41,950 nt of DNA from a virus (Duplodnaviria > Caudoviricetes), in the IMG/VR virus record IMGVR_UViG_3300049174_000096, positions 1 to 41,950 of that record, one strand, 5' to 3'. Of this stretch, positions 1 through 33,839 are shown in pieces; positions within the stretch are counted from its first letter, which is position 1; each line of letters starts with the position of its first letter. Under the pieces are notes generated by a model that saw nothing but the letters and a program-made list of their open reading frames with translations, was not told where the DNA came from and searched no databases. The translations under genes were made by a program, and so were the position numbers.

Positions 1-127
1 CGCTTCGGGAAATACCATAGTGGGTATGAATTCCGGGACAGCTACTTCAATAAATAATAGTTTGAATACAGGTTTTGGGCAGGCTGTCTTGGGAAGTTTA
101 GACATAACAGGTGCAGGAGGAAACTTC
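1..127. repeat. Terminal direct repeat (copy 1); circular-assembly overlap
   Basis: 1-127 is identical to 41824-41950 and an ORF reads through the junction; 127 matches a common assembler k-mer. Confidence 0.95.
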
Positions 128-871
128 AATTGCGCCTTCGGTTTCGGCTCTTTATTTACAAACAGCACAGGAAACAACAACGCTTCTTTTGGAAATTCTT
201 CATGCGCTAACTATGTCGGCAGTGACATGGCAGCTTTTGGATCCTCTTCGTTTACAAATCTAACAAGTGGAGACGACAACTGCGGGTTTGGTTCAGGAGC
301 CTTTGCAGGACTTCTCACAGGTAATTTTAATTGTGGATTTGGATCATTTGTCGGGAGCTCATACACTGGAGCGGAAAGCAGTAATATTCTCATCCAAAAC
401 TCAGGTGTTGTTGGGGAATCCCACACAATGCGCCTGGGAACTGACGGAATGGGCGACGGAACCGTGTCCTCAACTTATATAGCTGGAGTCGTAGGAGTCA
501 CTGTTCCTAATCAGCAGCGAGTTGTCATAGATTCTTCCACAGGACAGCTCGGAGTTCAATCCGGTTCTATAGTATCAAATTATACCAATGTCACTTTTGG
601 AATGTCTCCATACACAGTACTTGCAACTGATTACTATATATCATGTGACACGTCAGGAGGAGCAATTACTTTAAACTTCCCGAATGCTCCCACAGCTTTC
701 CAAGAATGGATCGTAAAAGATCGCACAGGAAACTCAGCAGCAAATAATGTCACCATAACTACACCTGGCGGCGTGGTGACTTTTGATGGATCGACCACTC
801 TCCTTCTAAATACAGCCTATGCAGCATTCAACCTTCTAGCCAACGCTACTCCTACTTATGAGGTATTCTAA
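1..871 (+). CDS. Tail fibre/adhesin-like protein, 3' part (gene starts at 41639 and crosses the circular junction; ~351 aa in total)
   Basis: N-x-(A/G)-F-G repeats like adhesin head repeats; C-terminal DY(Y)ISCDTSGGAITLNFP...WIVKD phage fibre-type domain; in frame with ATG 41639. Confidence 0.7.
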   Translation, partial: ASGNTIVGMNSGTATSINNSLNTGFGQAVLGSLDITGAGGNFNCAFGFGSLFTNSTGNNNASFGNSSCANYVGSDMAAFGSSSFTNLTSGDDNCGFGSGAFAGLLTGNFNCGFGSFVGSSYTGAESSNILIQNSGVVGESHTMRLGTDGMGDGTVSSTYIAGVVGVTVPNQQRVVIDSSTGQLGVQSGSIVSNYTNVTFGMSPYTVLATDYYISCDTSGGAITLNFPNAPTAFQEWIVKDRTGNSAANNVTITTPGGVVTFDGSTTLLLNTAYAAFNLLANATPTYEVF

Positions 872-2751
872 TGGGATATAGAAAGCAAAATCCCCTGACA
901 GTAGATGGAGTCCTATATGCTGATGCCAATAAAGTAACGAGCTCAACTAATGCAGGAACAGCTACCCAAGTTTTGACTTCTAATGGACCTGGAGTAGCCC
1001 CTACCTATCAAGCCGTCTCTGCCAGTGGCGCTGTGACGACTTTGACAGGCAATACAGGCGGAGCAATAGCCCCAGTTGCCGGTAACATAAATACAGTTGG
1101 CACTGGAAGCATTACTACAGCTGGAGCCGGTAACACGTTGACCACTCAACTCACTGGACTCACATCGAATGCTATCCAGGTTGGTGCAGGCACTGCAACA
1201 TTGACTCAACTTGGTCCAGTAAACAGAGCTGTTTTGACAACAGGTGCAACGGGAGTTCCTGCTTTAACATCTCTAGCTACCAACGGACAGCTCATAATAG
1301 GATCTACAGCCGGAGCGCCAGCAGCAGCTACGTTAACAGCTGGCACAGGTATTTCCATAACTAATGGATCAAACTCAATTACCATAGCCGTGAGTGGTGG
1401 GACAGTAGGAGAAACTCTGACAGGAGACACGGGGGGCGCTCGTAGTCCTACTGCTGGCAACTGGGATATAATAACCAATAATGCTGCGAAAAATTCCGGA
1501 TCTACAGTTCTCTTTTCGGGAGCTAGTAGTACTCTCACTTTAAATGTAAGCGATTCAAGCGCCAATACTATCATAGGAAGCGGTGCAGGAAATCTTTCCA
1601 CCACGACAAATAGCACTACAGGTTTAGGTCACAATGTACTAACTGCAATTTCGTCTGGGGTTAATAATACATGCGTGGGTTCCCTGAGCATGGAACATGC
1701 TACCACCGATGCCGCTTGCTGTGCTTTCGGATTTCAAGCTCTAAATGCTATGGTTGGCTCAGGAGGAAACAATACCGCAATCGGAGCAAATTCTTTACAG
1801 TCTATAACGACTGGTCAGAGTAACATAGCCATAGGCTCAAGTTCGGGTACCTCATATGGCACCTCTGACTCATCCAATATAGTGATAGGTCATACAGGAA
1901 CAACAAGCGAATCTAATGCCATCCATATAGGTACTCAAGGTTCTGGAACAGCCCAACAAAATAAATGTTTCGTAGCTGGTATTGCTGGTGTGACACCTTC
2001 AAATCCTACGCCTGTTCTCCTCAATTCTTCAACTGGACAGTTAGGAAACGTAACATCAGCTAACAGCGCTATTTTAGCTACCAATAGCTCTGGAACGTAT
2101 GCAATGAGAGCTCTTTCTGTGGTCACTCAAGTCTTCAGTGCAAGTGGCACTTATACGCCAACCTCAGGCATGCTTTATTGCAAGGTACGTGGAGTAGGAG
2201 GAGGGGGTGCAGGGGGAGGAGCACCCGCGACAGGCGCAGCTACTTATTCTGTAGGTGGAGGTGGAGGAGCTGGTGAATATGGAGAAGGTACATTTTCCGC
2301 TGCAACTGTCGGAGCTTCTCAGACTGTAACTATTGCGGCAGCTGCTACAGGAAATAGTGGCTCAGCTGGAAATAATGGAGGCACATGCAGTCTTGGTGCT
2401 TTGATTACATTTGCTGGAGGAACAGGTGGCGCGTCAGGTGCCGCTGGAACGGGGACAAACTGCCTAGGTGGCTTAGGTGGTACAGGTGGTACAGGAGGGT
2501 CTTTTCATAGTCCTGGGCAACCTGGTTTCAATGGATACGGTCAGACAGCAACATTTATATTGATTGGTGGTAATGGGGGCTCTTCCAATTTTGGAGCGGG
2601 AGGTAGGGCTCCAATATCAGCAGCTGGAGTTGCTGGATTAGGGTTTGGTTCTGGAGGTGCAGGCGCATCTAACGGAAACAATGCATCAGCAACATCTGGC
2701 GGATCTGGAACTGTCGGCCAAATAGTTATCGACGAGTATGTAATCAGCTAG
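871..2751 (+). CDS. Tail fibre/adhesin-like protein with Gly-rich C-terminal domain
   Basis: 626 aa; TLTG(N/D)TGGA..P.AGN modules, NTAIG/NIAIG repeats, and an F..SGTYTP...GGGGAGGG Gly-rich tail domain. Confidence 0.7.
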   Translation: MGYRKQNPLTVDGVLYADANKVTSSTNAGTATQVLTSNGPGVAPTYQAVSASGAVTTLTGNTGGAIAPVAGNINTVGTGSITTAGAGNTLTTQLTGLTSNAIQVGAGTATLTQLGPVNRAVLTTGATGVPALTSLATNGQLIIGSTAGAPAAATLTAGTGISITNGSNSITIAVSGGTVGETLTGDTGGARSPTAGNWDIITNNAAKNSGSTVLFSGASSTLTLNVSDSSANTIIGSGAGNLSTTTNSTTGLGHNVLTAISSGVNNTCVGSLSMEHATTDAACCAFGFQALNAMVGSGGNNTAIGANSLQSITTGQSNIAIGSSSGTSYGTSDSSNIVIGHTGTTSESNAIHIGTQGSGTAQQNKCFVAGIAGVTPSNPTPVLLNSSTGQLGNVTSANSAILATNSSGTYAMRALSVVTQVFSASGTYTPTSGMLYCKVRGVGGGGAGGGAPATGAATYSVGGGGGAGEYGEGTFSAATVGASQTVTIAAAATGNSGSAGNNGGTCSLGALITFAGGTGGASGAAGTGTNCLGGLGGTGGTGGSFHSPGQPGFNGYGQTATFILIGGNGGSSNFGAGGRAPISAAGVAGLGFGSGGAGASNGNNASATSGGSGTVGQIVIDEYVIS

Positions 2752-2760
2752 AGTTTTAAA

Positions 2761-2940
2761 ATGACAATTTCCATAGATGTAAATACTATTCCTGGACATG
2801 TAGATATAACATCTCCTCCTGGATCTTCCGTTTCTTATCTCTCCACACATCAAATGGTGTTCGATACTTCTGATGCAACCTCAACTTCTTCCGGTCTCTA
2901 TATATGGAAAAGCGGAGCCTTCGGCGCTCAAAATTGGCTC
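2761..2940 (+). pseudogene. 5' part of a virion/fibre-associated gene interrupted by the methyltransferase insert
   Basis: 60 codons ending GAFGAQNWL; joins in frame to 3961 (PLKYLATTSEIP...). Confidence 0.7.
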
Positions 2941-2990
2941 AGAAAAGCATAAAGTTCACCCCATTCTCCCTTATTTGCAGTTATATTCAT
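2928..2990 (-). pseudogene. N-terminal remnant of an HpaII-family restriction endonuclease
   Basis: ATG 2990 overlaps the MTase 3' end and reads MNITANKGEWGELYAFL, then runs into phage sequence (SQF*); matches the NKGEWxExY N-terminal motif of this family as I recall it. Confidence 0.6.
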
Positions 2991-3960
2991 TAATATTTTC
3001 TTTTAATATATTTAGCATGTTTGCTACTGTTGCGCGAATGGGGTTGACGGCTACGCTATTACCTAATTGTTTAAGTGCCTGTGCTTCTGATACAGGAAAT
3101 ATGAAGTCTTCAGGAAAACCCATCATTTTTTTACCTTCTTTTGAAGTAATGCGACGTATTTCGCCATCTACTTCATAGGTGTCCCAGTTTCTGCGATCAT
3201 CAATGCCTGAACCTCGGCCACCTACACGAAGAGTAAAACCGATTTCCTTAGAACAGTTACCCTCAAATACATCGGACATTGTGAATTCTAATGGGATTGG
3301 GTCAGGGAATCTAAAAGAATGACATCCGACAATGTCTTGTCTAAAACCGATAATATAAAGACGTGGTCTATGGGTTGGAAGGCCATAATCCGAGGCTTTT
3401 AAAATCTGGAAGGTTACGGAGTATCCCAGCTCATCTTCTAAAATGTGGCGAATAACCTCAAAAGTTCTACCATTATCGTGATTAAGGAGATGTCGCACGT
3501 TTTCGAGAAAAAATGCCTTCGGGTGCTTTGCTTTGATAATCTTAGCAATTTCAAAAAAAAGAGTCCCTCGTGTTTCAGCAAACCCTTTTTTAAATCCTGC
3601 CTGACTAAAAGGTTGACAAGGAAACCCCCCACAAAGAATGTCAACATTTTCAGGAATGCATGTTTGATTTTCATCATCGGTTATGTCCCCACGAAACATA
3701 TTATTTGTGAATAATTCCGGGGAAATATCTTTGAAATTTTCAATGTATGTTGTTCTTGCATGTGGATCCCATTCGCTGGCATACACGCATTTACCACCGA
3801 GTTGATGCAGTGCTGTGTGAAATCCCCCGATACCTGCAAATAGATCAATAAAAGTGAAGGACGCTTGCTGCTGTGGACAACTGTAAGCGTGTACATTTTC
3901 GAAGGCAAGCGCCATAACTATCACTATTATTCTAGGGTTAAGCATGTTTGTTTTTTCCAA
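2941..3960 (-). mobile_element. ~1020-bp foreign insert derived from a Type II R-M locus (MTase plus nuclease stub)
   Basis: Removing it restores a 195-aa ORF (2761-4368); antisense to the tail operon; no transposase, terminal repeats or in-frame target duplication seen; exact ends uncertain by a few codons. Confidence 0.65.
2971..3960 (-). CDS. dcm: DNA (cytosine-5)-methyltransferase (true start may be ATG 3945 or 3915)
   Basis: Motifs FIDLFAGIGG (I), GGFPCQPFS (IV), ENV (VI), RPRLYIIG (VIII), KQLGNSV (X). Confidence 0.95.
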   Translation of the reverse strand: MEKTNMLNPRIIVIVMALAFENVHAYSCPQQQASFTFIDLFAGIGGFHTALHQLGGKCVYASEWDPHARTTYIENFKDISPELFTNNMFRGDITDDENQTCIPENVDILCGGFPCQPFSQAGFKKGFAETRGTLFFEIAKIIKAKHPKAFFLENVRHLLNHDNGRTFEVIRHILEDELGYSVTFQILKASDYGLPTHRPRLYIIGFRQDIVGCHSFRFPDPIPLEFTMSDVFEGNCSKEIGFTLRVGGRGSGIDDRRNWDTYEVDGEIRRITSKEGKKMMGFPEDFIFPVSEAQALKQLGNSVAVNPIRATVANMLNILKENINEYNCK

Positions 3961-4368
3961 CCTCTTAAATATTTGGCCACCACATCTGAAATTCCAGTTA
4001 TTAATACTCCTCTGTATGCATATCCCACCCGTGCACTAAATACAGCGTATCAAGTAAGCGCAACACGGAACGCCTTCGTTGTAAACAGTATCCAGATCTC
4101 TTGTACATTATCTATTAGTGGGGGACAAACCGGAACGGTAGTCCTAGAGATTTGCCCCAACTCTGCTTTCTCAAGTGGTGTACAAGAAATTGGTGAAATA
4201 TCCAACGGCAATACGGGAACCCTTACCGTCGGTCTGAACATAGTACAAACCCTAACACAGAATCTATGCGGAAGAATCCCAGCTGGATATTATTATCGCA
4301 TGAGAACCGTGAACAATACTGGAACGCCAACCTTTACATGGAAATCTGCCCAGGAAGTGACCATCTAG
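3961..4368 (+). pseudogene. 3' part of the interrupted virion/fibre-associated gene
   Basis: Beta-rich domain PTRALNTAYQVS...IPAGYYYRMRT...QEVTI; the tracked TTG start at 3865 lies inside the MTase. Confidence 0.65.
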
Positions 4369-4615
4369 TTTGGCAATAGTTTACAGTCCACCTGGGTTCT
4401 TCTAGACTAATACAGGATACACTCAGTACAGTGAAGCCATGAATGTCAAGAAGTGCCAAGACATATCCTAGAGTGTTAGTATCAGATTTGAGTGTTAAGA
4501 CTTCAAATTGAGGCTCTGATGCTGTTTCTGGATTGCCAAGATATATAGATTCATTTGCATGAACCCCTAAAAAAGGAATAAACGCAGTTATGATACCAAT
4601 AATCTTACTTCTCAT
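4334..4615 (-). CDS. Hypothetical protein with signal-peptide-like N-terminus
   Basis: MRSKIIGIITAFIPFLGVHA; overlaps both neighbours slightly. Confidence 0.4.
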   Translation of the reverse strand: MRSKIIGIITAFIPFLGVHANESIYLGNPETASEPQFEVLTLKSDTNTLGYVLALLDIHGFTVLSVSCISLEEPRWTVNYCQTRWSLPGQISM

Positions 4616-4778
4616 GTGTCTATCCTCCTGTATGTTTAAAGACGGTCACTACATCGATGATAATCCCGTCGAAGAGATCGCAGAAGCTGTCCTCAAAGAC
4701 TATACAGGCATTGATGTAGACTTCACTCCATCTTCTGAAGAGAGACCTTCTGTGGATCTCATCAAAAAGAGGTTCTAA
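4590..4778 (+). CDS. Small putative lipoprotein
   Basis: Hydrophobic N-terminus with LSSC lipobox-like motif; AGGA upstream; lies at the end of the late operon. Confidence 0.6.
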   Translation: MIPIILLLMCLSSCMFKDGHYIDDNPVEEIAEAVLKDYTGIDVDFTPSSEERPSVDLIKKRF

Positions 4779-4966
4779 TGCCAATATATGTCTACGTAGT
4801 ATGCCTCGGGATCGCAATCTGTCTATTGTATCACCTTGTCCAAAAGGAGCTTTAGATCCTATTTCTTTTTCCTGAAATAGAAAAAACAAAAACCGATCCC
4901 AATCATAGCAAGAATAAACGCTAGATCAGACATAGATGTAAAGTTTAGTGCCCTGTAATGCATAGA

Positions 4967-5464
4967 TTATCTCCCATTGTCTGGAGCAGGAGGACATGTT
5001 CCTTGTCCAGGAGTTGGTCCTGCTCCCCAAATAGCCTCGGCTAATTTAGCATCGGAATTCCACATCTTTTCTAGAGCATCGGTTCCATAAGCCACCGCGC
5101 TTTCGCTATCGCCTCCAAGTGCACTTAAAACAGCCATAGCAGAGTCTTTTGTCGCGCTGAATAGATCGTTAATGGATTCCTTCCACGCCGCTTCTACAGC
5201 TGCACTCTCGGCATTTGAAGCCATGAGGGAGCCATTCCCATAGTTAGAAGCAAGAGTATTCCACTGCCAAGAGTTAAGATCAACGTTACCGTTCATGAAG
5301 TCCAGGCTGTTATTTACAAGTGTAGTTATAGCTGGCATATGGGGAGCAAACTGTTGCACTAATCCCTGACCCTGCTCAATAAAATGGCCACCACCTCTCA
5401 CAATGTGTCCTAAAACTTGAGGACCTTGACCAATCATTCTCTCTCCAACCGTAATATGACTCAT
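4967..5464 (-). CDS. Hypothetical protein
   Basis: 165-aa ORF with AGGAG RBS upstream. Confidence 0.7.
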   Translation of the reverse strand: MSHITVGERMIGQGPQVLGHIVRGGGHFIEQGQGLVQQFAPHMPAITTLVNNSLDFMNGNVDLNSWQWNTLASNYGNGSLMASNAESAAVEAAWKESINDLFSATKDSAMAVLSALGGDSESAVAYGTDALEKMWNSDAKLAEAIWGAGPTPGQGTCPPAPDNGR

Positions 5465-5571
5465 AAAAGTCTCCTTTTTTGTGGCAACGATAAAGCTGTG
5501 GCTTATTTATGTCTTCTCAAAAAAATACTTTAAAACCACCTAGAATCGCGTCAAATCGTTTCAGGCTACCC

Positions 5572-5970
5572 TCATACCTTCTGGTGTGCGTTATGAGGTC
5601 CTGAGGCAAATAAAGTCGGTTCCTTGGGATTCTTGGCCTCAACATCGGCACATCTTTTAACATAACTCTGGAAAGTGCTGTTGATCTTTGAAGTCACTTC
5701 TCTGTGGGAATCATGCAAAAAGATGGGAGTCGCATAAAACCCTCCATACACTTCCTTGGGAGGCTTCCAAGAAATAGTAAGCAGCGAATCTGGAACGTGT
5801 TGACTCCCGGTAATCTTCGCCATCATGCCTTTTGGTAGAGTTTGCTCTGTATGCTTCTCACAAAATCTTTTAGCCACCGCAAGATTCTTTGGATAATCTG
5901 TATGTGGTCCTCTTTGAGGCTCAACAGCGGTTCTATTCCAGCTAATTTCTTCTGACATAGGTACCTCCAA
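5572..5970 (-). CDS. Hypothetical protein downstream of the initiator (likely start ATG ~5958)
   Basis: GGAGG RBS before MSEEIS; overlaps the initiator 3' end. Confidence 0.6.
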   Translation of the reverse strand: MEVPMSEEISWNRTAVEPQRGPHTDYPKNLAVAKRFCEKHTEQTLPKGMMAKITGSQHVPDSLLTISWKPPKEVYGGFYATPIFLHDSHREVTSKINSTFQSYVKRCADVEAKNPKEPTLFASGPHNAHQKV

Positions 5971-6889
5971 ACATTTCGATTAACGCCTTTTTAAAGGTTT
6001 CTTCGGGTAAATTGAAAGGAATTTCTTTAGCCATGAGGCGATTTATTGCGAACTTATCATCAAAAGATAACCCCCTCATTTCATTCGGGTGTTTTTCTTT
6101 GAGCTGCATTGCGTAGTGACGGTTCTTTCTAACGAGTTCTTTCTCAGAATCCCCTCCCTTTTGAGCCATCATGACATCAAAATCTTTCCTCAGCTTTGAG
6201 GGGCTCAAACATGCTGACTTCCACCACTTGTGGGTAGAGGCCCACTCTATGAGATCGCGAACCTTGGAAGGATCTCTCTTATCGATCCTGAGAAGGCAAT
6301 CAAACTCTGCCCTCCACTTCTCAAGCTTTGGCTCTTTGAATTCTGGATTTCTTTCCCTAATTTTTTCGAAGAAAAAAGTACACAAAGAGTCGGCGTCAGC
6401 CGAGACCTGAGGCGGAGCCGAAGCTTTCTTTTCCGACTTCGGGGCTTCTTTATATATTGGTTTATCTTTTTCTTCTCTGTTAAGAGAAGAATGTTTTTCC
6501 TTAATGTATTCGTTTTCGGGGTCCCGAGCTTCGGTATCCCGAAAACAGGGATGTCGGAAAATATTTTTGAATTTTGGAGATTCTGAAATGTAATATTTAA
6601 ATCCACTTTTTAGATTCCCTGATTTATTCTCTTCTCTCTTTATGTAGCCAGCTTGAATAGCCTCATTTACCATCTTGTAGACTCTATTTCGCCCCATAAA
6701 TTTTTTTACATGAGAATGGACTTGGGCAATGTTCAATTGCCAGCCATTTTTCATGCTCAGTAGATATATTAAAAACCAGCGGCATTCTGGTGAGATATTT
6801 TCGTCTCTTATCAGATCTCTATTGATTTGGGCGTACGGATTTTCTTTATCATGAGGACATCTTTGGATGGTATCGGTATCATGTTTCAT
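5942..6889 (-). CDS. Phage replication initiator / replisome-organiser-like HTH protein
   Basis: N-terminal wHTH-like region (LIRDENISPECRWFLIYLLS...EAIQAGYI), charged linker, and C-terminal D.R...W...WW...LSPSKLRKDFD domain like lambda O/DnaD C-termini. Confidence 0.75.
   Translation of the reverse strand: MKHDTDTIQRCPHDKENPYAQINRDLIRDENISPECRWFLIYLLSMKNGWQLNIAQVHSHVKKFMGRNRVYKMVNEAIQAGYIKREENKSGNLKSGFKYYISESPKFKNIFRHPCFRDTEARDPENEYIKEKHSSLNREEKDKPIYKEAPKSEKKASAPPQVSADADSLCTFFFEKIRERNPEFKEPKLEKWRAEFDCLLRIDKRDPSKVRDLIEWASTHKWWKSACLSPSKLRKDFDVMMAQKGGDSEKELVRKNRHYAMQLKEKHPNEMRGLSFDDKFAINRLMAKEIPFNLPEETFKKALIEMFGGTYVRRN
6515..6542. repeat. Short direct repeats inside the initiator gene (possible iterons)
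   Basis: TTCGGGGTCCCGA (6515) and TTCGGTATCCCGA (6530), 15-bp period, beside A/T-rich linker-coding DNA. Confidence 0.35.
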
Positions 6890-7161
6890 TATTGGGCCTC
6901 CTCTCTTAGAAGGAGTCCGTCATTCACTAATTGATCCACTAGAGAATAAAATGTTTCCTTTGAAAAAATTGGAAATCTTTTAAAGAGATCTTTTTCTTTC
7001 ATTGGCGAGCCATCTCCATTCAAACATTGGGGGATTTCTCCTAAAAGAAGGGCCTTTTCCCATCCATACTTGATGATGTCTTCCATGAAGATAATGGAAG
7101 GGTAATTTCTAGATCTTATAACTGGCACGATAAGTCTCCCGTCTTGTTGGGAGATGCACAA
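6889..7161 (-). CDS. Hypothetical protein, possibly winged-helix
   Basis: Stop overlaps the initiator start; C-terminal TFYSLVDQLVNDGLL. Confidence 0.5.
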   Translation of the reverse strand: MCISQQDGRLIVPVIRSRNYPSIIFMEDIIKYGWEKALLLGEIPQCLNGDGSPMKEKDLFKRFPIFSKETFYSLVDQLVNDGLLLREEAQ

Positions 7162-7206
7162 TCTTCTCGAAAGAGAACTTGAGAAATATGTAGCTTTTCT
7201 TTTACT

Positions 7207-7236
7207 TTGAGCTTAAATGGCTGTTTTGTATAAGAT
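7207..7236 (+). promoter_or_regulatory. Sigma70-like promoter
   Basis: TTGAGC followed after 16-18 nt by TATAAG/TAAGAT. Confidence 0.45.
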
Positions 7237-7288
7237 GGCTACGCTTTAACAAGCGAAATCCCTCCCAGGACTTCATTTCGTGCATCTG

Positions 7289-7320
7289 ACCCCGAGCGAC
7301 TAACTCGGGGTTTTTTTATT
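7289..7320 (+). terminator. Rho-independent terminator
   Basis: ACCCCGAG-CGACTAA-CTCGGGGT stem-loop followed by a T run. Confidence 0.8.
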
Positions 7321-7425
7321 TTGTTAATTCCATCCTATTCGCAATAAACCATTTGAAGCAAATCCTATTTGCAGTTATCCTCCTGGTTGCTTTTAAGATA
7401 ACTTAATAAAATCGGAGGCTTTGTA

Positions 7426-7602
7426 ATGTCCTTTCAATCAAAAATTTGTGACCTAGATACCTACATTAAAGACAAAGAGGCTGCTGAAGAAATATTGAAA
7501 ATAGCCAAAAAAAGAAATATTTCTCGCAAGATTGCTTACCTTTACGAAGAAATTCTAAAGCTAGAAGAGATTTTGAAAGATCAAGAGATAGTCGAAGCAT
7601 AA
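7426..7602 (+). CDS. Small hypothetical protein (58 aa; not in ORF track)
   Basis: GGAGG RBS; MSFQSKICDLDTYIKDKEAAEEILKIAKK...; opposite strand to its neighbours. Confidence 0.6.
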   Translation: MSFQSKICDLDTYIKDKEAAEEILKIAKKRNISRKIAYLYEEILKLEEILKDQEIVEA

Positions 7603-7631
7603 AAAACCGCCCCAAGCTTGGCCTGGGACGG
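7601..7631 (-). terminator. Rho-independent terminator after the exonuclease gene
   Basis: Minus strand CCGTCCCA-9 nt-TGGGGCGG followed by TTTTTT. Confidence 0.7.
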
Positions 7632-7658
7632 CCCATGGAGAGAATATGCGACTAACAA

Positions 7659-8579
7659 CTAACTAGTAACACGAGCTGTCCATTTTACGAAAGATGGTTT
7701 CCGATACGGCTCTACCGATATTGGTTTGAATGGAATATCAGGGTAGTGAGCTTTTAGATTGTCCACATAGTCGCTAAAAGCTTGCATGTAGTCGATCGAT
7801 CCGGAGACAACGGAGCGCGTCAAAGATACTCGGCTTCCTCGGGATGATTTTCCGTCAGCAAGGCCTATCATTTGGTTGCGTATTTCTTTTTCTGCGGCCT
7901 CAACGTCACGAAGAGCAAGCAGCTTTTCTATCCAGGTGCTTGCTAGAGCCTTCCACTCTTCGCTTTCCCCCATCTCGTTGAAATCTTTTTCAGTAAGTGG
8001 AGGGGCTTTGTTACTCTTTATAAATTCCCAAAACTCTTTCTCTTTTGGGAATAATTGAGTCTCGATGTAGCTGGAATCTCTTGCGACCTCGACAATCACA
8101 CCTTTAGATCCGTCAGCGGGACTGGAAAAATAATACATGCCTGGCATCCCGGTCACATTCAAAATGTGCTGGCATTGAGGATAATACTTCTCAGGAATCT
8201 TTCCCGATTTAGCTGTAGCGTGATCCTCTTTGTTGGCCTTTTTGATCTCTACGATATTCTCAAAAGATTCATCGATGCCGTCTAAAGAAGCCTTGAGCCA
8301 CAAATGAGAGGTATTCTGAACATTCATGGGCATGAAGGTTTTTCCAATATAGCTCTCGAATTCAATACGAGAAGCTCCCTCAGTCTCTCTTCCAAAGCGC
8401 TTGGCTGCGTTGTCTTCGTTTGACCTAGAAAGAACCTTCTCTTCCCACTTTTGGAAGGGCGTAGCCCATGGAGAAACCCCCATGATAGCCGGGGCATCGC
8501 TGCCCCCAATTCCATTACGTCTCCATTCAAGCCACTCTTCATGGCTCATGTTATCGCATTTACGCCACATCTGATTCAC
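7659..8579 (-). CDS. yqaJ: YqaJ/lambda-exonuclease family recombination nuclease
   Basis: EWLEWRRNGIGGSDAPAIMGVSPW, ASLDG, EIK and YYPQCQH motifs. Confidence 0.9.
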   Translation of the reverse strand: MNQMWRKCDNMSHEEWLEWRRNGIGGSDAPAIMGVSPWATPFQKWEEKVLSRSNEDNAAKRFGRETEGASRIEFESYIGKTFMPMNVQNTSHLWLKASLDGIDESFENIVEIKKANKEDHATAKSGKIPEKYYPQCQHILNVTGMPGMYYFSSPADGSKGVIVEVARDSSYIETQLFPKEKEFWEFIKSNKAPPLTEKDFNEMGESEEWKALASTWIEKLLALRDVEAAEKEIRNQMIGLADGKSSRGSRVSLTRSVVSGSIDYMQAFSDYVDNLKAHYPDIPFKPISVEPYRKPSFVKWTARVTS

Positions 8580-9096
8580 GGGAAACCTCCTTGCCTGCGT
8601 CTAAATCAACGAAAGGATCTTTGCCTACATACAGGGCGTACAGATTGACCGGGGTCTCCTGGTACACTTCTGCGATGTCTTTATCAAGCTTGCTAGGAGA
8701 GCTAGAACGCAAGATATAACGCGTGTCCTTGCCTTCTCCATGCTTTGACACAAAGATGTCATAAAGAAGCGGGGATCCCTTATTTTGGGCTAGCGATTTC
8801 AGAGAAGCCTTTAAATTCTTCTGGCCAAAAGACCAGATCTGAAGCACACCTAAATCATAGTTCCAGATGAGCATGGCGTTAAATTCTTTCATGGGTTTGG
8901 CTGGATTAGGAGCCACTCTTGGTTTCTTATCTGGATAGAACCTAATCGGCTTGTTATCCTCACTCCAGTTCTCCCAACCCACAATCGGTTGGCTCAATAT
9001 TCGAATGCGAACCTCGTCGCCTTCAACAATTTTGCTGGGCTTAAAGTAGTCTGTGTTTCCCATGTATTTATCTTCTTCAGGAAAAAATGATGACAT
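8560..9096 (-). CDS. Putative ssDNA-binding/annealing protein
   Basis: Next to YqaJ; RIRILS...GWE.W...WNY...YD...K.G.G..T.Y pattern of a conserved phage family; acidic C-terminus. Confidence 0.5.
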   Translation of the reverse strand: MSSFFPEEDKYMGNTDYFKPSKIVEGDEVRIRILSQPIVGWENWSEDNKPIRFYPDKKPRVAPNPAKPMKEFNAMLIWNYDLGVLQIWSFGQKNLKASLKSLAQNKGSPLLYDIFVSKHGEGKDTRYILRSSSPSKLDKDIAEVYQETPVNLYALYVGKDPFVDLDAGKEVSRESDVA

Positions 9097-21154: not shown

Positions 21155-21405
21155 TGATCCTCCGGAACATATCCACAGAACGGACATGCTTGTACTCTTA
21201 CCCAGTGCAAATTGCTGACTCGATTGGTCTTTGTTTGTTTTTCATGAGTAGTATGTCTGGAAATTAGGATCAATCTTCCTAGATCGTTTTCCATTTCCGA
21301 GCATTCCCAATAGACATGATCTTGTGTCCCGGCATCGCTTCTTTGCAGGGTTTTGGGAAAACAAAGGTGTTTGTACAAAGGGGAGATATCACTGTTTTTC
21401 TGCAT
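21151..21405 (-). CDS. Hypothetical protein with C-terminal CPFCG
   Basis: Overlap-coupled to both neighbours. Confidence 0.55.
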   Translation of the reverse strand: MQKNSDISPLYKHLCFPKTLQRSDAGTQDHVYWECSEMENDLGRLILISRHTTHEKQTKTNRVSNLHWVRVQACPFCGYVPEDQ

Positions 21406-22417
21406 TTAGCCTCGCTTTTGCTATTTTTACATATTCTTCTTCCTTTTCTATTCCTACGGCCGAAAATCCTAACCGCTTGGCTGCTAGTATTGTTGTCCCC
21501 GAGCCGGCGAAAGGGTCCAGAAGAATACCGTTATCTGGTGGCATGATGAGCTTGATTAGATATTCCATGAGTTTTAATGGTTTGACTGTGGGATGGTAAT
21601 TTTTTGCAGCAGCTTTTATTGACCCATATTTCCCGCACACATTATCTTCGGTGTTGTTAATTCCACCCCCACCAATAGTCTGACCAATGGGAAGGCAATC
21701 CAATCCTTCATTCCTCTCACTAGAAGACGCCTTAGCGCAATAGAAAAATCGGGATGCTCCCTCTCCCTTTCTTTCTACCCTTTCTTTTTTAGGGCCTGAT
21801 AAAATCCCACTTTGCTCATCCAGGGTATCAGCAGCTTCCTCATCAAATATGACATTGGCTGGCCAGCGGCCTATGTGGCATTTCCCGACAAAATCAACAG
21901 ACTTTGGAACATTTGGACAAGCTGTTGCCATCGATCCCATTCCGTTCGTCAAAATAGTGTCAGTCCCTATCCTACACCCATCAATATTAATCCCTGCCTG
22001 CCCCCATTTCTCGGCATTTTGCTTGAACGTTCCATCACATGGTTTCATAGCCATGATTATAGGCTCATAAGCGGGCTTTACAGCGGTTCCATATCCTTCT
22101 ATTCCAAAATGATTATGACTCTTGGGAAACCCACTTCCATAGATCCACATGAGGCAGTCTCTGATTTCCCATCCCGCATCTTCGATTGCGCAAGTTAGTC
22201 TGTGAAATGTTCTAGTACCACCCATTGCAAGCAAGTGCGCGCCGGGTTTAGATATTCTAAGCATTTCTTGCCAATATTCTACGCCAGGCACCGTATGATC
22301 CCAGCCTTTATTCATGAACGAAAGTCCGTAGGGGGGATCTGTAATAATCGCTGAAACGCAATTGTCCTCCATTGTCCTCATGACATCTAGACAATCACCT
22401 AACTCTATGTTCTGCAT
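21389..22417 (-). CDS. DNA amino-methyltransferase (N6-A/N4-C, beta class)
   Basis: ITDPPYG catalytic motif precedes HPTVKP and the LDPFAGSGTT SAM-binding motif. Confidence 0.95.
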   Translation of the reverse strand: MQNIELGDCLDVMRTMEDNCVSAIITDPPYGLSFMNKGWDHTVPGVEYWQEMLRISKPGAHLLAMGGTRTFHRLTCAIEDAGWEIRDCLMWIYGSGFPKSHNHFGIEGYGTAVKPAYEPIIMAMKPCDGTFKQNAEKWGQAGINIDGCRIGTDTILTNGMGSMATACPNVPKSVDFVGKCHIGRWPANVIFDEEAADTLDEQSGILSGPKKERVERKGEGASRFFYCAKASSSERNEGLDCLPIGQTIGGGGINNTEDNVCGKYGSIKAAAKNYHPTVKPLKLMEYLIKLIMPPDNGILLDPFAGSGTTILAAKRLGFSAVGIEKEEEYVKIAKARLNAEKQ

Positions 22418-24839: not shown

Positions 24840-25378
24840 ATGTCTATTACAACTACGGGTAATCTTGGACCTATGATCTTGCAGTCCCTCGCGCCTGCGA
24901 TGCTCTATGTTCCAACACCCACAATGAACTATATTACGGTCTGCGACAAGGTATCGATGCCAGCTAATGGCGGTACAACTTGCCGTTTTATGAGACCTAG
25001 GGCATTGCAGCCCCCTACTGTCCAATTAGGTAACAGTGGGATTGATCCCCCCGCTCAAGTGCCACAACGCGACATCATTGATGCGCAAATGGCGTTCTTC
25101 GGAACGGGCTGTATTATAAACGAACAAGTCATTTTGCAAGACCAAGAAGGTGTCCTTGCGTGGGTATCTGAGCGTTTGGCGGTCGCCATGCGTCAGGCCG
25201 AAGACTTGATCCTTCGCGACTACATTGTATCTGCAGCTAGCCAAATTAACGCTGGTGGTGGATCCAATGGGGATAACCCAACTAACCTTGGAATCTCTGA
25301 TTTCAGCTTAGTTGCTACAACCCTCGATACAAATAACGCTTATAAATTCATGAGTGGTATCGAAGGTATGGACAGGTT
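24840..25378 (+). CDS. Major capsid protein (N4-gp56-like), exon 1
   Basis: MPANGGTT..F.R...L...FG....I...V......L....L...M...ED.I.RD pattern; ends in GMDR plus TT. Confidence 0.85.
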
Positions 25379-25825
25379 TGACTTACTAGACCTGTATAAA
25401 TCTTCTCTGATAGACTTGGAACTCTTAACTGCTGCATAAGCAAAAGACAACAAGGGGCAAGATTATGGATAGGATGATTTTTTGCCATCCGTGCAAAATA
25501 GAAGAAATGATCGATGATTATTATTCTGACGAATGGAAATGTCCTAAATGTAATCAGCCTGAACGCAGCAAGCGAGAAGACTCTGAGAAAGAACACTATG
25601 ATAGGGGTGCATTTGATCTCAATATCATGGTTCCTTAGAGATGCGGTGCTCTGAACATTGTGGAAACACAGTGAGGGATAAGTAGAGAAAGTCCCCGCCA
25701 ATTAATTATGGTTCCATCGTCTAAAGGGGTTGGTTCCCCGTAGTAGGACGTCATGAAACAAGGAAAATGTCAGTGCAAGCCTGACTGGGGTTTGTTGATT
25801 AATTGGTCAAAAAGTAACAGACAAG
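25379..25825 (+). ncRNA. Group I self-splicing intron (447 nt, no homing endonuclease ORF)
   Basis: P1 ACAGGTT/GACCTGT with U-G at 25378; terminal G 25825; P10 TACTA/TGGTA; P3 TCTTCTC/GAGAAGA; P7; P8 CTCTGAG/CTTAGAG; P9 CATTGTG-GAAA-CACAGTG; removal restores the frame. Confidence 0.9.
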
Positions 25826-26258
25826 TGGTACAGGCCCAGTAAGAAGCGCATATTTTATGCTTTCTTCTACTGAGCTACAAACAGACTTTGATGGTCTTGT
25901 TGGCTCTGGATTCCTTAGCCAATGGAACTATCCTACTAACGCAAGCGCTCTTCCTAGCGAATACGGATCTGTGTTCAATACACGTATCCTGACTAGCTCT
26001 GAAGCGCCAGTTGCACGCGGTGCATCTAAAAATGGTAACGATGTTTACTACAATACGGTATTGGGTAAACAGGCGATCACGCATATCAATCAGGATGGTT
26101 ATTCCATGAACCTGATCTATCGCGATCCCTACTATTCTGGAATGCTCGCACAGAACGCTACTCTTGCCGTGAAGTTTGCTCAAGCGCAAGCGATCACGCA
26201 AGACACAGCTATCCGTAACCTTCTCAGCACCAGACTCTCGTCTGTTGCAGGACCATAA
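25826..26258 (+). CDS. Major capsid protein, exon 2 (spliced product 323 aa)
   Basis: Spliced junction reads DRF-GTGPVRSAYF-MLSSTEL...Y......EYGS...R. Confidence 0.85.
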
Positions 26259-26269
26259 GGAGGTAAATT

Positions 26270-27445
26270 ATGGCTGAATATTCAAGAATAGCAAAAGGTC
26301 GTTTCACATCTACTGGTAATGCGCAGGTTGTTAACCTCCCGTTCCAGCCAGATCGCATTGAAATGACAAACTTCACAGCAACCGCGACTCCAGCAAACCA
26401 CGGCATTCCTTTTGCTTGGTGGGATGTATTAATGGGTCAAGGTACAGGGCTTGGATTAGTAAACAATGCTACCCCAGTTCTAACAAGTGGTCAGTTTTTG
26501 ACTAATGGTTTTAGTACGTTTTCAGCAGGATTACTGCTGCAATACGGACCTACATACCAATTTAGTAATTCTGGTAATCCAACATTCTCTATTTCACAAA
26601 GTTCCACAGCACCTCTTGTGACAACTTCTGTTGCTCACGGACTGGCTACTGGAAATGTTGTTATATTTGAGAATCTTTACCAGACAGCTACAACTGGTAT
26701 GGTGCAAATTTGTGGTATTCCTTTCACAGTCACTGTGACCGGCGCTACAACATTTACCATTAACTGGAACACTAACCAATCGACATACGCTGCATTTGAC
26801 AGCTCTACAGCTACGAATAATGCAGGATCTTGGAAACAAGTCCTCTATCCGTACTTGTATGCTCCAGACCAAGCAGTGATTAGTGCTATTAATACAAGCA
26901 CCAATGTCATTACTACAACATCGGCTCACAACTTTGTAGTTGGCCAAGAGGTTGCCTTTAGAATTCCTACAATCTGGGGTTCTACGCAGCTTAATAGCCT
27001 ACCTAACGTTGTGATCCCAGGCTCTCCAGGATACTATTATGTAACTGCGGTGACGCAAAATACATTCACAGTTTCTGGTAACTTGACAGCTGTTACGGCT
27101 TACAACTCCAACTTTAATGGTGGCGCTGTAATCCCGACAGGAGCTTGGACATTCCCACAGGTTGTTCCTGTAGGAGATGTCAACACAGGTGGTGTTCAAT
27201 TTAGTGGTGGCGCTCTGTATCCTTCGCCGTTGGTCTACAATGGCAGCGGAACAGCGCAGGTTTCTACTATTAATGGGCCTGCAATCCAGGGTGCATTCGT
27301 TAATAACACAAGCCAAGGATTCATTATTGGATCTGGTAACATCAAAGTTGGTGCTGCTGGAGCTGATACATCGTCTCACCTTGTCGGTGCTGCTTCGGAT
27401 GTTATCTACTGGGTAGCATACTACTCAGACCTTGCGGTAGTGTAA
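26270..27445 (+). CDS. Virion structural protein (head decoration/spike candidate)
   Basis: AGGAGG RBS directly after the capsid gene; two T...H(G/N)...G..V beta domains. Confidence 0.65.
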   Translation: MAEYSRIAKGRFTSTGNAQVVNLPFQPDRIEMTNFTATATPANHGIPFAWWDVLMGQGTGLGLVNNATPVLTSGQFLTNGFSTFSAGLLLQYGPTYQFSNSGNPTFSISQSSTAPLVTTSVAHGLATGNVVIFENLYQTATTGMVQICGIPFTVTVTGATTFTINWNTNQSTYAAFDSSTATNNAGSWKQVLYPYLYAPDQAVISAINTSTNVITTTSAHNFVVGQEVAFRIPTIWGSTQLNSLPNVVIPGSPGYYYVTAVTQNTFTVSGNLTAVTAYNSNFNGGAVIPTGAWTFPQVVPVGDVNTGGVQFSGGALYPSPLVYNGSGTAQVSTINGPAIQGAFVNNTSQGFIIGSGNIKVGAAGADTSSHLVGAASDVIYWVAYYSDLAVV

Positions 27446-31025: not shown

Positions 31026-33839
31026 ATGGGTCAAAAAATACTCGTCGGTAATCCGGTTACTAAAGGCTTTGTCAACAATACAACGGCATTCGGTGTAGAC
31101 AATGACGCATTCCCTGTTTTAGTAAACGCGTATCAATGGCGAGGAAGGGTCAAAAGAAAGCGCGGCACTTCTTTACTAAATCGATTAAAACGCTATTTCA
31201 ATTCTACTAATACGTCTTATTTCCCAGCTCCTGGTACCACTGCTGTCAGCGCCGGTGGTGCTGTAAATCTGTTAACTGGATTTAGTCTCCAAGCCAATGG
31301 AAACATTGTGCCAGGAACTAATCCTAACTTCGTAACGATTACGGACACCACTAGCGGGCAAATCTACACTGATCCTGCTAACGATGGTACCCTTTCCGGA
31401 AGCCTAGGAGGAAGCGGTACGATTAATTATGCGACAGGGGCTGTAGTCATTTTACCATCGGCATCTCATTCTGTGACAGCTGTTTTTAATTATTATCCAG
31501 ACCTCCCTGTAATGGGCCTTGAAGATCTTCAGATAGACACTAGCGATTTCCCTGGAACATTAGGTTTTGACACTGTATATTCGTATAATATTCTACAAAC
31601 ATCCCCATATAATATTTACAGTGTCAGCTTTTACAAAAACCCTGTTGCAACGACCCCCTATAACTATGACGGCTACGTGCGCAAAACTAACACGACGCCT
31701 ACCTCGTGGAATGGTCAAGATTACCAACAATTCTGGACTGTCAACTATGAGGGGGCTCTTTGGGCGACCAATGGGATCACAGTTCCTTTCACAAAAACAA
31801 ACATTGGGATGCAATATAAGCCGATAACGGCTATTACAATAGATGCTGCTGGGCCCCCTAATGCTTTAGCTACCTTAACTATAGTCGCTCATGGATTGGT
31901 AAAAGGAGATTTTGTTTTCATAAATGAGGTAGGGGGAATACCAGGAATCAATTTTCAAACTGGATACGTTGTTAGCAACGACCCTCAGGCTGCCAATACA
32001 GTACAAGTAGAGTTTCCTTATGCTACCTTAACGGGAGCATATTCGGGGGGAGGAATTGCTCAGTATTTGACAAACAGATCTGATGTGACCAAGGATTGCT
32101 TGAGATGGTATGACGGTGACCCTACTGACGGAAATCCAACGTCTCCTACATTGAATGGAAGTGGGGGATGGGTCAACTTCGCGCCTCCTTTAATATCAAA
32201 TGTAGCAAACAACTTTATAATTGATGATCTTCCGATTGCTCAATATTATTTAGTGGGCGCTAGAATGATAGTTCCTTTTAAAGATAGGCTATTGTTCTTT
32301 GGACCCGTTATTCAAACTTCGACTCCTAATTCTCAAGTATATTTGCAAGATAGTGTCATTTATAGCCAAAATGGCAACCCTTATTATACTGCCTCGTTTA
32401 CCGGGTCTGCTTCATCATCGGCAACAACTTTTAATCCTATCCTGACACCCGTAAATCAAACCGCAAGTCCCAATGCCTATTTCGAAGACCTGACGGGCTT
32501 TGGTGGCTACATCACAGAAGGCTCTCAACAGCCGATTACGACAGTCTCAAATAACGAAGACGTGCTTATGGTCGGATTTAGCGGCAAAGAGACGCGATTC
32601 GTTTATACCGGCAATGACATTGTTCCGTTTAACTTCTTCACCGTGAACTCTGAGTATGGATCTAACAGTACATTTTCTTCTATCAATCTAGACAGAGGCG
32701 CTTTAAAAGTGGGAGATAGAGGCGTAATCATTAGCAGTCAGGTGGCCTCTCAAAGAATTGACTTAGCGATCCCAGATCAAGTTTTCCAGTTCAATTTAAA
32801 AAATAATGGGACTGAGAGAGTAACTGCGCAAAGGGACTTTATAAGCGAATGGGTTTATTTTACTTACTGCGTTAATAGAAGACAAAGTATTGAATGGAAA
32901 TTCCCAAGTCAGACCCTACAATACAACTATAGAGATGATTCATGGGGTGTCTTTAATGAGTGTTATACAACTTATGGCCAATTTAGAAAGGTAACTGGAG
33001 AAACTTGGTCCACAATTGGGAATACATATCCGACATGGTCTGAATGGCGTGATTCATGGAATTCAGGGTCATCTACACTTTTGCAACCTGAGGTGATAGG
33101 GGGAAACCAGCAGGGGTTTGTAATATTTAGAGCAGACGGAACAGGGGAAGCCAACTCTCTTTACATTCAAAATATTTCTGCAAGCACTGTAACCTCGCCA
33201 GATCACTGCTTGAACAACGGGGACTATGTAGTCATCAGTGGATGCCTTGGCACCGTAGGATCGCAAGTAAACGGCAAAATTTTCAGTGTGGCCAATGCCA
33301 CGCAAAATACCTTCACTTTGAATCCCACAATAGTCGGTGGAACTTATTTGGGTGGTGGTTTGATCAAAAGGATGTATATCCCTTTCATTCAGACAAAACA
33401 GTTTCCTGTAGCTTGGGACATGGGACGCAAGACTAGACTAGGTCCTCAACAATATCTTCTATCGCCTACGGACAATGGTCAGGTTGAGCTTCAAATATAT
33501 TTAAGCCAGAATGCTGCATCGCCTTACAATTTTGGGCCCGTAACTCCTGCTAATAATTCTCAGAATAACACTTTGGTTTATAGCGACATTCTCTACACGT
33601 GTCCTGAAAGCACTAACTTGGGCCTTACTCCAGCTAACGTCAACCTGCAAATGCCCACTGCATCTCAGCAGGCGCAAATCTGGCATCGCATGAATACTTC
33701 TTTGATTGGTGATACGGTTCAGCTTGCAATAACCATGTCAGATGCTCAAATGAGAGATCCTGATTTTAACAACCAATTTGAGGAAATAGAACTCCATGCT
33801 TTTGTTTTAGATGTATCTCCTTCATCAATGCTGGCATAA
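31026..33839 (+). CDS. Putative tail nozzle / tubular protein B (P22 gp10/T7 gp12-like)
   Basis: 937 aa, beta-rich; N....RG.VKRKRG N-terminus; FKDRLLFF; precedes the ejection-like genes. Confidence 0.6.
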   Translation: MGQKILVGNPVTKGFVNNTTAFGVDNDAFPVLVNAYQWRGRVKRKRGTSLLNRLKRYFNSTNTSYFPAPGTTAVSAGGAVNLLTGFSLQANGNIVPGTNPNFVTITDTTSGQIYTDPANDGTLSGSLGGSGTINYATGAVVILPSASHSVTAVFNYYPDLPVMGLEDLQIDTSDFPGTLGFDTVYSYNILQTSPYNIYSVSFYKNPVATTPYNYDGYVRKTNTTPTSWNGQDYQQFWTVNYEGALWATNGITVPFTKTNIGMQYKPITAITIDAAGPPNALATLTIVAHGLVKGDFVFINEVGGIPGINFQTGYVVSNDPQAANTVQVEFPYATLTGAYSGGGIAQYLTNRSDVTKDCLRWYDGDPTDGNPTSPTLNGSGGWVNFAPPLISNVANNFIIDDLPIAQYYLVGARMIVPFKDRLLFFGPVIQTSTPNSQVYLQDSVIYSQNGNPYYTASFTGSASSSATTFNPILTPVNQTASPNAYFEDLTGFGGYITEGSQQPITTVSNNEDVLMVGFSGKETRFVYTGNDIVPFNFFTVNSEYGSNSTFSSINLDRGALKVGDRGVIISSQVASQRIDLAIPDQVFQFNLKNNGTERVTAQRDFISEWVYFTYCVNRRQSIEWKFPSQTLQYNYRDDSWGVFNECYTTYGQFRKVTGETWSTIGNTYPTWSEWRDSWNSGSSTLLQPEVIGGNQQGFVIFRADGTGEANSLYIQNISASTVTSPDHCLNNGDYVVISGCLGTVGSQVNGKIFSVANATQNTFTLNPTIVGGTYLGGGLIKRMYIPFIQTKQFPVAWDMGRKTRLGPQQYLLSPTDNGQVELQIYLSQNAASPYNFGPVTPANNSQNNTLVYSDILYTCPESTNLGLTPANVNLQMPTASQQAQIWHRMNTSLIGDTVQLAITMSDAQMRDPDFNNQFEEIELHAFVLDVSPSSMLA

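What the first reader, a model, noticed from the sequence alone, without database searches (positions are those of the whole stretch)
2761..4368. Restriction-modification fragment inserted antisense into a virion gene, which rejoins in frame when the insert is removed
Seen: ORF 2761 ends ...GAFGAQNWL at 2940, and the frame resumes at 3961 with PLKYLATTSEIP. Deleting 2941-3960 (1020 bp) gives one 195-aa ORF. The intervening DNA holds only a C5 methyltransferase and a nuclease stub on the opposite strand, with no transposase, inverted repeats, intron core or in-frame target duplication. Inference: the phage captured a host MTase by illegitimate recombination at the cost of a fibre-associated gene, or the contig is chimeric here. 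One apparent boundary coincides with the first base of the MTase ORF, which is suspiciously clean, so an artefact must be excluded.
Basis: partly seen in the sequence, partly recalled or inferred. Interest (0 to 1): 0.8.

Follow-up and report, generated by a model that had tools for sequence, protein, structure and literature searches.

The report
Phage freshly captured a host methylase
An uncultured phage carries 1,029 bases of a bacterial restriction system (a whole DNA methylase gene plus the first codons of the cutting enzyme) inside a likely tail-fibre gene, and a short contig from another sample shows the same site unbroken, so this is likely a recent, base-resolved case of the known way phages gain protective methylases.

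Summary
A 151-base contig from another study joins window 2943 directly to 3973. The insert is therefore 2944-3972 (1,029 bp) and the unbroken gene has 192 codons, not 195. Two homologues span both halves in one protein. The insert is a slice of an MTase / HpaII-family endonuclease / Vsr operon: an intact C5 MTase plus 15 endonuclease codons. MTase relatives about 95-97% identical in DNA occur in two other runs. No target base is lost or duplicated and I found no element ends. A 3-5 nt microhomology is likely at the left joint. A contig of the likely source run spans both joints with no difference, which makes an artefact unlikely; raw reads were not available. The broken gene, predicted to be a fibre-tip beta-sandwich, was found in 0 of 50 phage records searched, so it is likely dispensable. 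Best reading: recent illegitimate capture, likely from a chlamydial host, giving a likely CCGG-protecting orphan MTase. This is a known kind of event, and the scan noted similar captures on other DNA (e1-5665144, e1-5818265). The exact donor, expression and benefit are not shown.

The parts
2761..2943 (+). 5' half (61 codons) of the interrupted gene; now runs 2 codons into the insert and stops at 2952 (63 aa)
   Evidence: ORF; matches P0004 residues 1-60 at 47%, E 1.4e-13; 43% and 47% to P0001 and P0004
2944..3972 (-). Captured 1,029-bp fragment of a bacterial type II restriction-modification operon, antisense to the interrupted gene; no target base lost or duplicated
   Evidence: Empty allele 2943|3973 in one 151-nt contig of run X2; length, frame and GC 39.5%; spanned by one contig of run X1 with 0 differences
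2971..3915 (-). Intact C5-cytosine DNA methyltransferase (314 aa from ATG 3915; the open frame extends to ATG 3945 and TTG 3960); target likely CCGG, by association with an HpaII-family endonuclease
   Evidence: PF00145 E 6e-80; motifs DLFAGIGG, GFPCQ, LENV, RxRxY and GNSV present; 95% to P0030, 86% to P0031; P0150 is the same 314-aa call
2944..2990 (-). First 15 codons of an HpaII-family restriction endonuclease, overlapping the MTase end; the frame runs into phage DNA and stops 4-5 codons later
   Evidence: Translation; the same NKGEW start follows the MTase in 12 of 15 cellular loci at 60% identity or more; 3 of 3 of those ORFs tested are RE_HpaII PF09561
2939..2943 (.). Likely microhomology at the left joint: 2941-2943 shared by phage and donor (3 nt), up to 2939-2943 (5 nt) if the donor had G at the wobble base
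   Evidence: Phage side. Donor side inferred from 20 distinct cellular endonuclease starts: matches 15, 12, 20, 2 and 20 of 20 at 2943 to 2939, then 0 of 20 at 2938 and 2937. The true donor was not obtained
3916..3972 (-). Donor sequence upstream of the MTase, with an AAGAGG stretch near 3962-3967 that could serve as a ribosome-binding site (inferred)
   Evidence: Sequence; the frame aligns to the N-terminal extension of P0031 and resembles that of P0158 by eye; run X5 matches up to 3956
3973..4368 (+). 3' half (131 codons) of the interrupted gene; holds the whole predicted beta-sandwich fibre-tip domain; begins with a TTG codon that lacks an obvious ribosome-binding site
   Evidence: 29 homologues; phrog_31472 and phrog_28908 C-termini; fold of homologue P0004; start codons listed
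871..2751 (+). Upstream glycine-rich tail-fibre gene (context)
   Evidence: phrog_863, phrog_6202 and phrog_454, tail fibre; PF21722
4967..9096 (-). Leftward early or replication gene block; co-directional with the captured MTase, so read-through expression is possible (inferred)
   Evidence: Strands; DnaD-like and RecE/YqaJ matches; 0 terminator-like sites in 2700-5000 against 1.4 expected by chance, which is not significant

Best explanation
A 1,029-bp slice of a bacterial MTase / HpaII-family endonuclease operon sits at 2944-3972 inside a likely accessory tail-fibre gene of a complete 41.8-kb phage genome, and it likely arrived recently by illegitimate, microhomology-assisted recombination during infection of a likely chlamydial host. 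Shown: the empty site, intact homologues, an intact MTase, an endonuclease cut off after 15 codons, and no target loss or duplication. Inferred: (1) a break in the phage gene was joined to a host fragment using 3-5 shared bases at the left end; (2) the insertion was tolerated because the gene is dispensable; (3) the MTase lies in the direction of the early genes and would be expressed by read-through or from a carried signal; (4) it would methylate CCGG and protect the 57 sites of the genome against HpaII-type restriction, which would favour the variant. Losing the nuclease while keeping the MTase is the outcome selection would keep.
For: Empty allele 2943|3973 with 17 of 17 letters matching on the short side. 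The 5 listed X2 pieces on phage DNA total 840 nt with 0 differences from the window, so the event is recent. P0001 and P0004 span both halves. 12 of 15 cellular loci have the same MTase followed by an NKGEW endonuclease (RE_HpaII and Vsr confirmed), and 13 locus alignments among the 45 rows printed stop at exactly 2941 (some loci are the same DNA). Runs X4 and X5 hold only the MTase part: 21 differences in 793 nt, and 43 differences plus 3 gap bases in 844 nt. One X1 contig spans both joints with 0 differences at depth 10.2, against 10.1 for its neighbour. The broken gene is in 0 of 50 phage records (positive control). One other phage record carries a 77% identical MTase among small phage genes with no endonuclease after it. 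Precedent: PMC4190342 passages.
Against: The empty allele rests on one 151-nt contig at depth 3 with 17 letters on one side, below the tool's 31-letter bridging rule. An exact 23-letter search for the empty site found 0 matches in viral contigs. No raw reads were laid and X1 may be the source sample. The true donor was not found: best cellular match 74% among 401 genomes of the chlamydial phylum, and X5 departs from the window at 3957, so the right-hand microhomology is unknown. Composition barely marks the insert: 17 of 160 windows have GC as low, and its trinucleotide distance ranks 40 of 160. CCGG is only mildly avoided (58 seen, 71 expected). No promoter signal above chance (5 found, 6.0 expected). 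Expression, specificity and benefit are untested. The host call has no control phylum.
Confidence: 0.78

Rival explanations
1. The capture is real but neutral or harmful: the MTase is not expressed, and the variant is a drifting or partly defective lineage that lost a fibre-tip protein.
For: The insert is antisense to the late gene it sits in. No promoter-like excess. The same MTase was found in 0 of the 49 capsid-related phage records (four distant C5 MTases at 31-40%; the 77% hit is the one record I added because it had the gene). The silent bias of differences to X4 and X5 (11 of 14, 26 of 37) can all predate capture.
Against: The MTase is complete, with all motifs checked present, while the nuclease is cut after 15 codons. 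The inserted form is the assembled form in run X1. It is co-directional with the early block.
Confidence: 0.3
2. Assembly or library chimera: bacterial DNA joined into an empty phage genome in the source sample.
For: The only full-length holder is the run marked as possible source. No other run holds either inserted joint. Near-identical phage DNA elsewhere is empty. Only contigs were seen.
Against: It needs two exact joints with no target loss. Logan's 11,520-nt contig and the 41,950-nt record have different extents yet agree base for base across both joints. No joint or loose end is listed for X1, and its two contigs have depths 10.1 and 10.2. An empty phage at that depth would be expected to dominate the assembly (inference).
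Confidence: 0.08
3. The segment is a non-autonomous mobile element moved by a transposase in trans that makes no target duplication (IS200/IS605-, IS91- or IS110-like; properties recalled).
For: Precise insertion with no target loss or duplication. Earlier scan notes place related RM cassettes on mobile islands (unchecked).
Against: The left end falls inside conserved endonuclease coding sequence. No repeat over 7 nt between the ends, and end folding is weak (-0.8 and -1.7 kcal/mol). No transposase in the window among 40 proteins scanned. X5 leaves the alignment at a different base, 3957.
Confidence: 0.05
4. The insert is removed at the DNA or RNA level (intron or excising cassette) so that the 192-aa protein is still made, and the X2 form is an excision product.
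For: The length is a multiple of three and the empty form is exact. The same genome has a likely group I intron in its capsid gene.
Against: In-frame length has a 1 in 3 chance. No Rfam match. The insert is almost wholly protein-coding operon DNA on the other strand. No flanking repeats for a recombinase. The empty form was seen in a DNA run of another study, not in X1.
Confidence: 0.03

Closest known systems
Orphan MTases acquired by lactococcal phages (936-type Phi93, Phi145, Phi15; phi-50 with LlaPI from plasmid pTR2030), PMC4190342, passages read
   Same: The phage holds the MTase of a type II restriction-modification system without a working endonuclease; origin from host or plasmid DNA; non-homologous recombination proposed; protection against restriction shown there.
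   Different: In the passages read, those MTases are extra ORFs between terminase genes or in the replication region. Here the fragment splits a coding gene, keeps a 15-codon nuclease stub, and the empty site is resolved to the base. Activity is not shown here.
MTase / HpaII-family endonuclease (PF09561) / Vsr (PF03852) operons of uncultured Chlamydiae, Babeliales and Patescibacteria (loci L002-L016)
   Same: Gene order, MTase-endonuclease overlap, NKGEW start, 60-74% MTase identity.
   Different: Only the MTase and 15 endonuclease codons are present; no Vsr. It is a fragment, not a working restriction system.
Phage morons and mosaic joints made by illegitimate recombination (concept recalled; searches gave no paper that I read)
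   Same: Foreign DNA present in one phage and absent from a near-identical one; joints inside coding sequence with little or no homology.
   Different: A classical moron lies between genes with its own promoter and terminator (recalled). This one lies inside a gene, and no such signals stood out.
Phage record G050 / L028
   Same: Same MTase family (77%), in a 35.7-kb phage, with no endonuclease after it.
   Different: It sits in line among small phage genes with no stub seen, and looks like an older, separate and settled capture (inferred; no tree built).

Membership tests
C5-cytosine DNA methyltransferases (PF00145) | Profile match above the curated cut-off; motifs for SAM binding and catalysis (FxGxG, PC, ENV, RxR, GNS) | tested here: met
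   269 bits against cut-off 22; motifs located; M.HhaI E 6e-61
C5-cytosine DNA methyltransferases (PF00145) | Methylates DNA; target CCGG | not testable with these tools
   Target inferred from the HpaII-family partner; that HpaII recognises CCGG is recalled
Type II RM system, HpaII family | MTase next to an RE_HpaII endonuclease gene start | tested here: met
   The stub aligns with the starts of RE_HpaII genes in cellular loci
Type II RM system, HpaII family | Full-length endonuclease (about 355 aa) | tested here: not met
   15 codons, then phage DNA and a stop; so it is a fragment, not a member as a system
Phage orphan MTase captured from a host RM system | Absent from a near-identical phage; present in cellular operons | tested here: met
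   Empty allele from one short contig; cellular loci
Phage orphan MTase captured from a host RM system | Near-identical donor in the host genome | tested here: inconclusive
   About 95-97% DNA matches in short contigs of runs X4 and X5 with no organism; best genome match 74% protein
Phage orphan MTase captured from a host RM system | Expressed and protects against restriction | not testable with these tools
   No RNA run holds the stretch (0 of 5 rows, searched as kind 'dna')
Insertion sequence or MITE | Transposase, terminal repeats or hairpins, target duplication | tested here: not met
Insertion sequence or MITE | Same ends at other sites | tested here: inconclusive
   No second copy in the window; donor-level relatives were seen only as short contigs
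Self-splicing intron | Ribozyme core in the inserted RNA | tested here: not met
   0 Rfam matches in the window; note that Rfam also missed the likely capsid intron, so this test is weak; the insert is operon coding DNA
Phage fibre or spike tip protein (interrupted gene) | Beta-sandwich head like those at fibre ends; location among tail genes | tested here: inconclusive
   Homologue model pLDDT 77.6; best viral match is the C-terminus of a phiEa2809 tail-spike protein, E 4e-16, rmsd 1.1; solved-structure matches weak, E 2.5e-5 or worse, query TM 0.41 or less; virion location untested

The most novel reading that the evidence does not exclude
The clean insertion, with no target base lost or duplicated, records break-and-capture repair: a double-strand break in the phage, possibly made by a host defence nuclease, was healed by end-joining onto a fragment of the host's own restriction locus, so the attack handed the phage its antidote. 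This would be an end-joining route to new phage genes in tailed phages of intracellular chlamydiae, a large family (260 related viral contigs) for which my two literature searches found no description.
Probability: 0.15. Interest if true: 0.62.

Novelty: new member of a known kind. Interest (0 to 1): 0.36.

Why it matters
Orphan methyltransferases are common in phages, but the capture step is usually erased by the time they are seen. Here the before and after states differ by one exact 1,029-bp block, the nuclease stub still marks the donor operon, and the joint anatomy (no loss, no duplication, 3-5 nt likely microhomology) constrains the mechanism. A second phage with a settled 77% relative suggests this MTase family is captured repeatedly. 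It is a clean teaching and test case for how phages gain anti-restriction genes, not a new system.

Tried and rejected
The in-frame rejoining test was rejected as evidence: 2366 of 2417 in-frame joins are open. Composition does not single out the insert. Cutting by the captured system at the joint was rejected: the nearest CCGG sites are at 2891 and 4130. Terminal repeats, hairpins and a second copy in the window were not found; the empty site folds at -7.3 kcal/mol, without a shuffle control, so I draw nothing from it. The promoter and terminator scan gave chance levels. Rfam gave nothing. Searches for a near donor failed: plasmids best 63% DNA over 73% of the query and 56.5% protein; phages only short pieces; genomes best 74%; metagenomes best 80% over most of the gene, and that locus has no endonuclease behind it. 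Searches for syntenic phages with the intact gene failed: one weak hit, 10 loci sharing only the C-terminal domain and no other window gene tested, 0 exact empty-site matches. X2 has no piece inside the insert at 89% or more, but its cover is patchy, so this is not counted. X3 holds scattered phage pieces, none in the listed bins over 2671-4272. The capsid protein had no match among named phages or in 5 MTase-bearing genomes. 31 of the 80 capsid-related loci were not searched for the split gene or the MTase. Literature searches: searches returned 0 papers; some searches returned listings, of which I read passages of PMC4190342 only; no supplements were opened.

Full report
Setting. The window is a whole virus record of 41,950 bases with a 127-base terminal repeat, so the genome is a 41,823-bp circle. 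It encodes a terminase, a P22-like portal, a phrog_1357 capsid protein, RecE/YqaJ, RusA and tail-fibre genes. Its capsid protein has 260 relatives among viral contigs, the best 80 at 92-99% identity. The host is likely chlamydial. In 401 genomes of the phylum of a Waddliaceae record, the terminase matched 8 (best 64%) and the capsid protein 5 (best 45%). Four of the 15 closest cellular MTase loci carry chlamydial names. I ran no control phylum, so this is a lead only.

Checking the observation. ORF 2761 and the frame ending at 4368 are halves of one gene. Homologue P0004 (192 aa) matches 2761-2943 with residues 1-60 (47%, E 1.4e-13) and 3985-4359 with residues 65-190 (55%, E 5.2e-40). I read 27 of the 29 homologues of the 3' half and aligned 4, chosen by eye, against the 5' half. 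Two matched it (43% and 47%) and two did not (19%), so the head domain also occurs with other N-termini.

The true joints. Run X2 (another study and habitat) holds short pieces of a near-identical phage: the 5 pieces listed on phage DNA total 840 nt with 0 differences (9 pieces across all runs were not shown). One 151-nt X2 contig, at depth 3, lies on 3973-4106, and its 17 loose letters are exactly window 2927-2943, a string that occurs once in the window. Seventeen letters is below the tool's 31-letter bridging rule, so this contig alone is weak. It is backed independently by P0001, which reads QNWLRLATT at the same place. The insert is thus 2944-3972, 1,029 bp, and the unbroken gene has 192 codons. 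No phage base is lost or duplicated.

What the insert is. On the minus strand it holds a C5 MTase (PF00145, E 6e-80) with its motifs intact. It is followed by an overlapping start at 2990 that gives 15 codons of an endonuclease before running into phage DNA. In 12 of 15 cellular loci with 60% or more MTase identity, an ORF with the same NKGEW start follows. Three of three tested are RE_HpaII, and the next gene in the one locus tested is Vsr. One of the 15 goes straight from MTase to a Vsr-like ORF, one has a diverged start and one a partial ORF (by eye). Close relatives exist: proteins at 95% and 86%, a 90% cluster of 10 members including the window's own, and MTase-only contigs in runs X4 (21 differences in 793 nt) and X5 (43 differences plus 3 gap bases in 844 nt). 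Differences to these are mostly silent (11 of 14 and 26 of 37 listed), which can all predate capture. The true donor was not found; the best genome match is 74% (6 of 401 genomes at E 1e-100).

Joint anatomy. Among the 45 blastn rows printed, 13 locus alignments stop at exactly 2941 (some loci are the same DNA). Across 20 distinct endonuclease starts, the window base is matched 15, 12, 20, 2 and 20 times at 2943 to 2939, and 0 times at 2938 and 2937. Since the empty allele shows that 2941-2943 are phage bases, phage and donor likely share 3 bases, or 5 if the donor had G at the wobble position. At the right joint the donor flank is unknown. The frame upstream of the MTase aligns to P0031's N-terminal extension up to 3960, and X5 departs at 3957. 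There is no repeat over 7 nt between the ends, no strong end hairpin and no second copy. The left end lies inside conserved coding sequence, which argues against an element terminus.

Artefact? In run X1, marked as the possible source, one 11,520-nt contig covers 2608-8000 with 0 differences and 0 gaps at depth 10.2, beside a contig at 10.1. No joint or loose end is listed for X1. Its contigs differ in extent from the window record, so two assemblies appear to agree, although probably from the same reads. Contigs drop rare variants and give flat depth, and no raw reads were served, so an artefact is unlikely but not excluded. No other run holds an inserted joint.

The broken gene. It follows glycine-rich tail-fibre genes. 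A model of homologue P0004 has pLDDT 77.6, with a confident beta-sandwich from about residue 70 and a poor N-terminus. The best viral match is the C-terminus of an Erwinia phage phiEa2809 tail-spike protein (E 4e-16, rmsd 1.1). Solved-structure matches are weak: baseplate, lambda tail tip, and TNF/C1q-like folds and lectins, at E 2.5e-5 or worse. The break at codon 61 would separate this head from its N-terminal part. The gene was found in 0 of 50 phage records (49 of the 80 capsid-related loci, chosen for length, plus one MTase-bearing record), while the same query found both halves in the window. It is therefore likely an accessory gene, though distant forms could be missed.

Likely working. 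Shown: empty and filled states, an intact MTase, a truncated nuclease, clean joints. Inferred: a host fragment was joined into a break in the phage gene with the help of a few shared bases; the loss was tolerated; the MTase points the same way as the early block at 4967-9096 and could be read through; it would methylate CCGG and protect 57 sites. Against or neutral: no promoter excess (5 found, 6.0 expected) and no informative terminator signal; CCGG only mildly avoided (ratio 0.82, third lowest of 16 palindromes); composition unremarkable. C5 MTases were found in 5 of 50 records: four distant (31-40%) among the 49 capsid relatives, and one at 77% in the record I added for that reason, where it lies among small phage genes with no nuclease after it.

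Comparison with what is known. Passages of PMC4190342 describe orphan MTases acquired by lactococcal 936-type phages, show protection against restriction, and cite phi-50 carrying LlaPI identical to plasmid pTR2030. This finding works like those cases. It is not a member of the HpaII restriction systems, since the nuclease test is not met. It is not an insertion sequence or an intron by the tests run. My searches for a closer published case and for tailed phages of environmental chlamydiae gave nothing that I read as a match, but the library lacks most subscription papers. Scan notes e1-5665144 and e1-5818265 report similar captures on other DNA; I did not check them.

Verdict. A real, recent, base-resolved capture of a host RM fragment, with corrected boundaries 2944-3972. 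New member of a known kind; interest 0.36.

Noticed in passing
window 25379-25825 (+), inside the major capsid gene 24840-26258: A 447-nt likely group I intron: the 5' exon ends in T, the insert ends in G, a P1-like pairing is visible by eye, and removal gives an open 323-codon frame. 59 of 80 relatives read through by my pattern, and about 11 of the other 21 show a related insert at the same codon by eye. Rfam does not detect it, so it may be a diverged intron family.
   Followed up: partly
window 24840-26258; loci L074-L153: The capsid protein is 92-99% identical over 180 aa in the best 80 of 260 viral contigs, yet has no match among 50,697 named phage records: a large, very conserved and apparently unnamed phage family, likely of chlamydiae.
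   Followed up: partly
window 21389-22417 (-): A second DNA methyltransferase, N6/N4 type (PF01555), lying antisense between the portal and scaffold/capsid region among other small minus-strand genes.
   Followed up: no
window 1-127 and 41824-41950: 127-base direct terminal repeat; ORFs 41639-41950 and 2-871 are one fibre gene across the contig ends.
   Followed up: yes
L028 4983-5879 (G050): Another phage with a 77% identical C5 MTase overlapping a likely metallophosphoesterase gene (by eye), no nuclease stub; likely a separate, older capture of the same family.
   Followed up: partly
run X5, record on window 3116-3956: A 95% identical MTase copy whose upstream DNA changes abruptly at 3957 into unrelated sequence; it may be another rearrangement near the same end of this cassette.
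   Followed up: no
L029 and L068: 80-85% identical MTase copies with no HpaII-type endonuclease start directly behind them: orphaned copies in other metagenome contigs.
   Followed up: no
window 26270-27445 and 31026-33839: Two proteins with an E1 FCCH-like domain above Pfam's cut-off, in the structural region.
   Followed up: no
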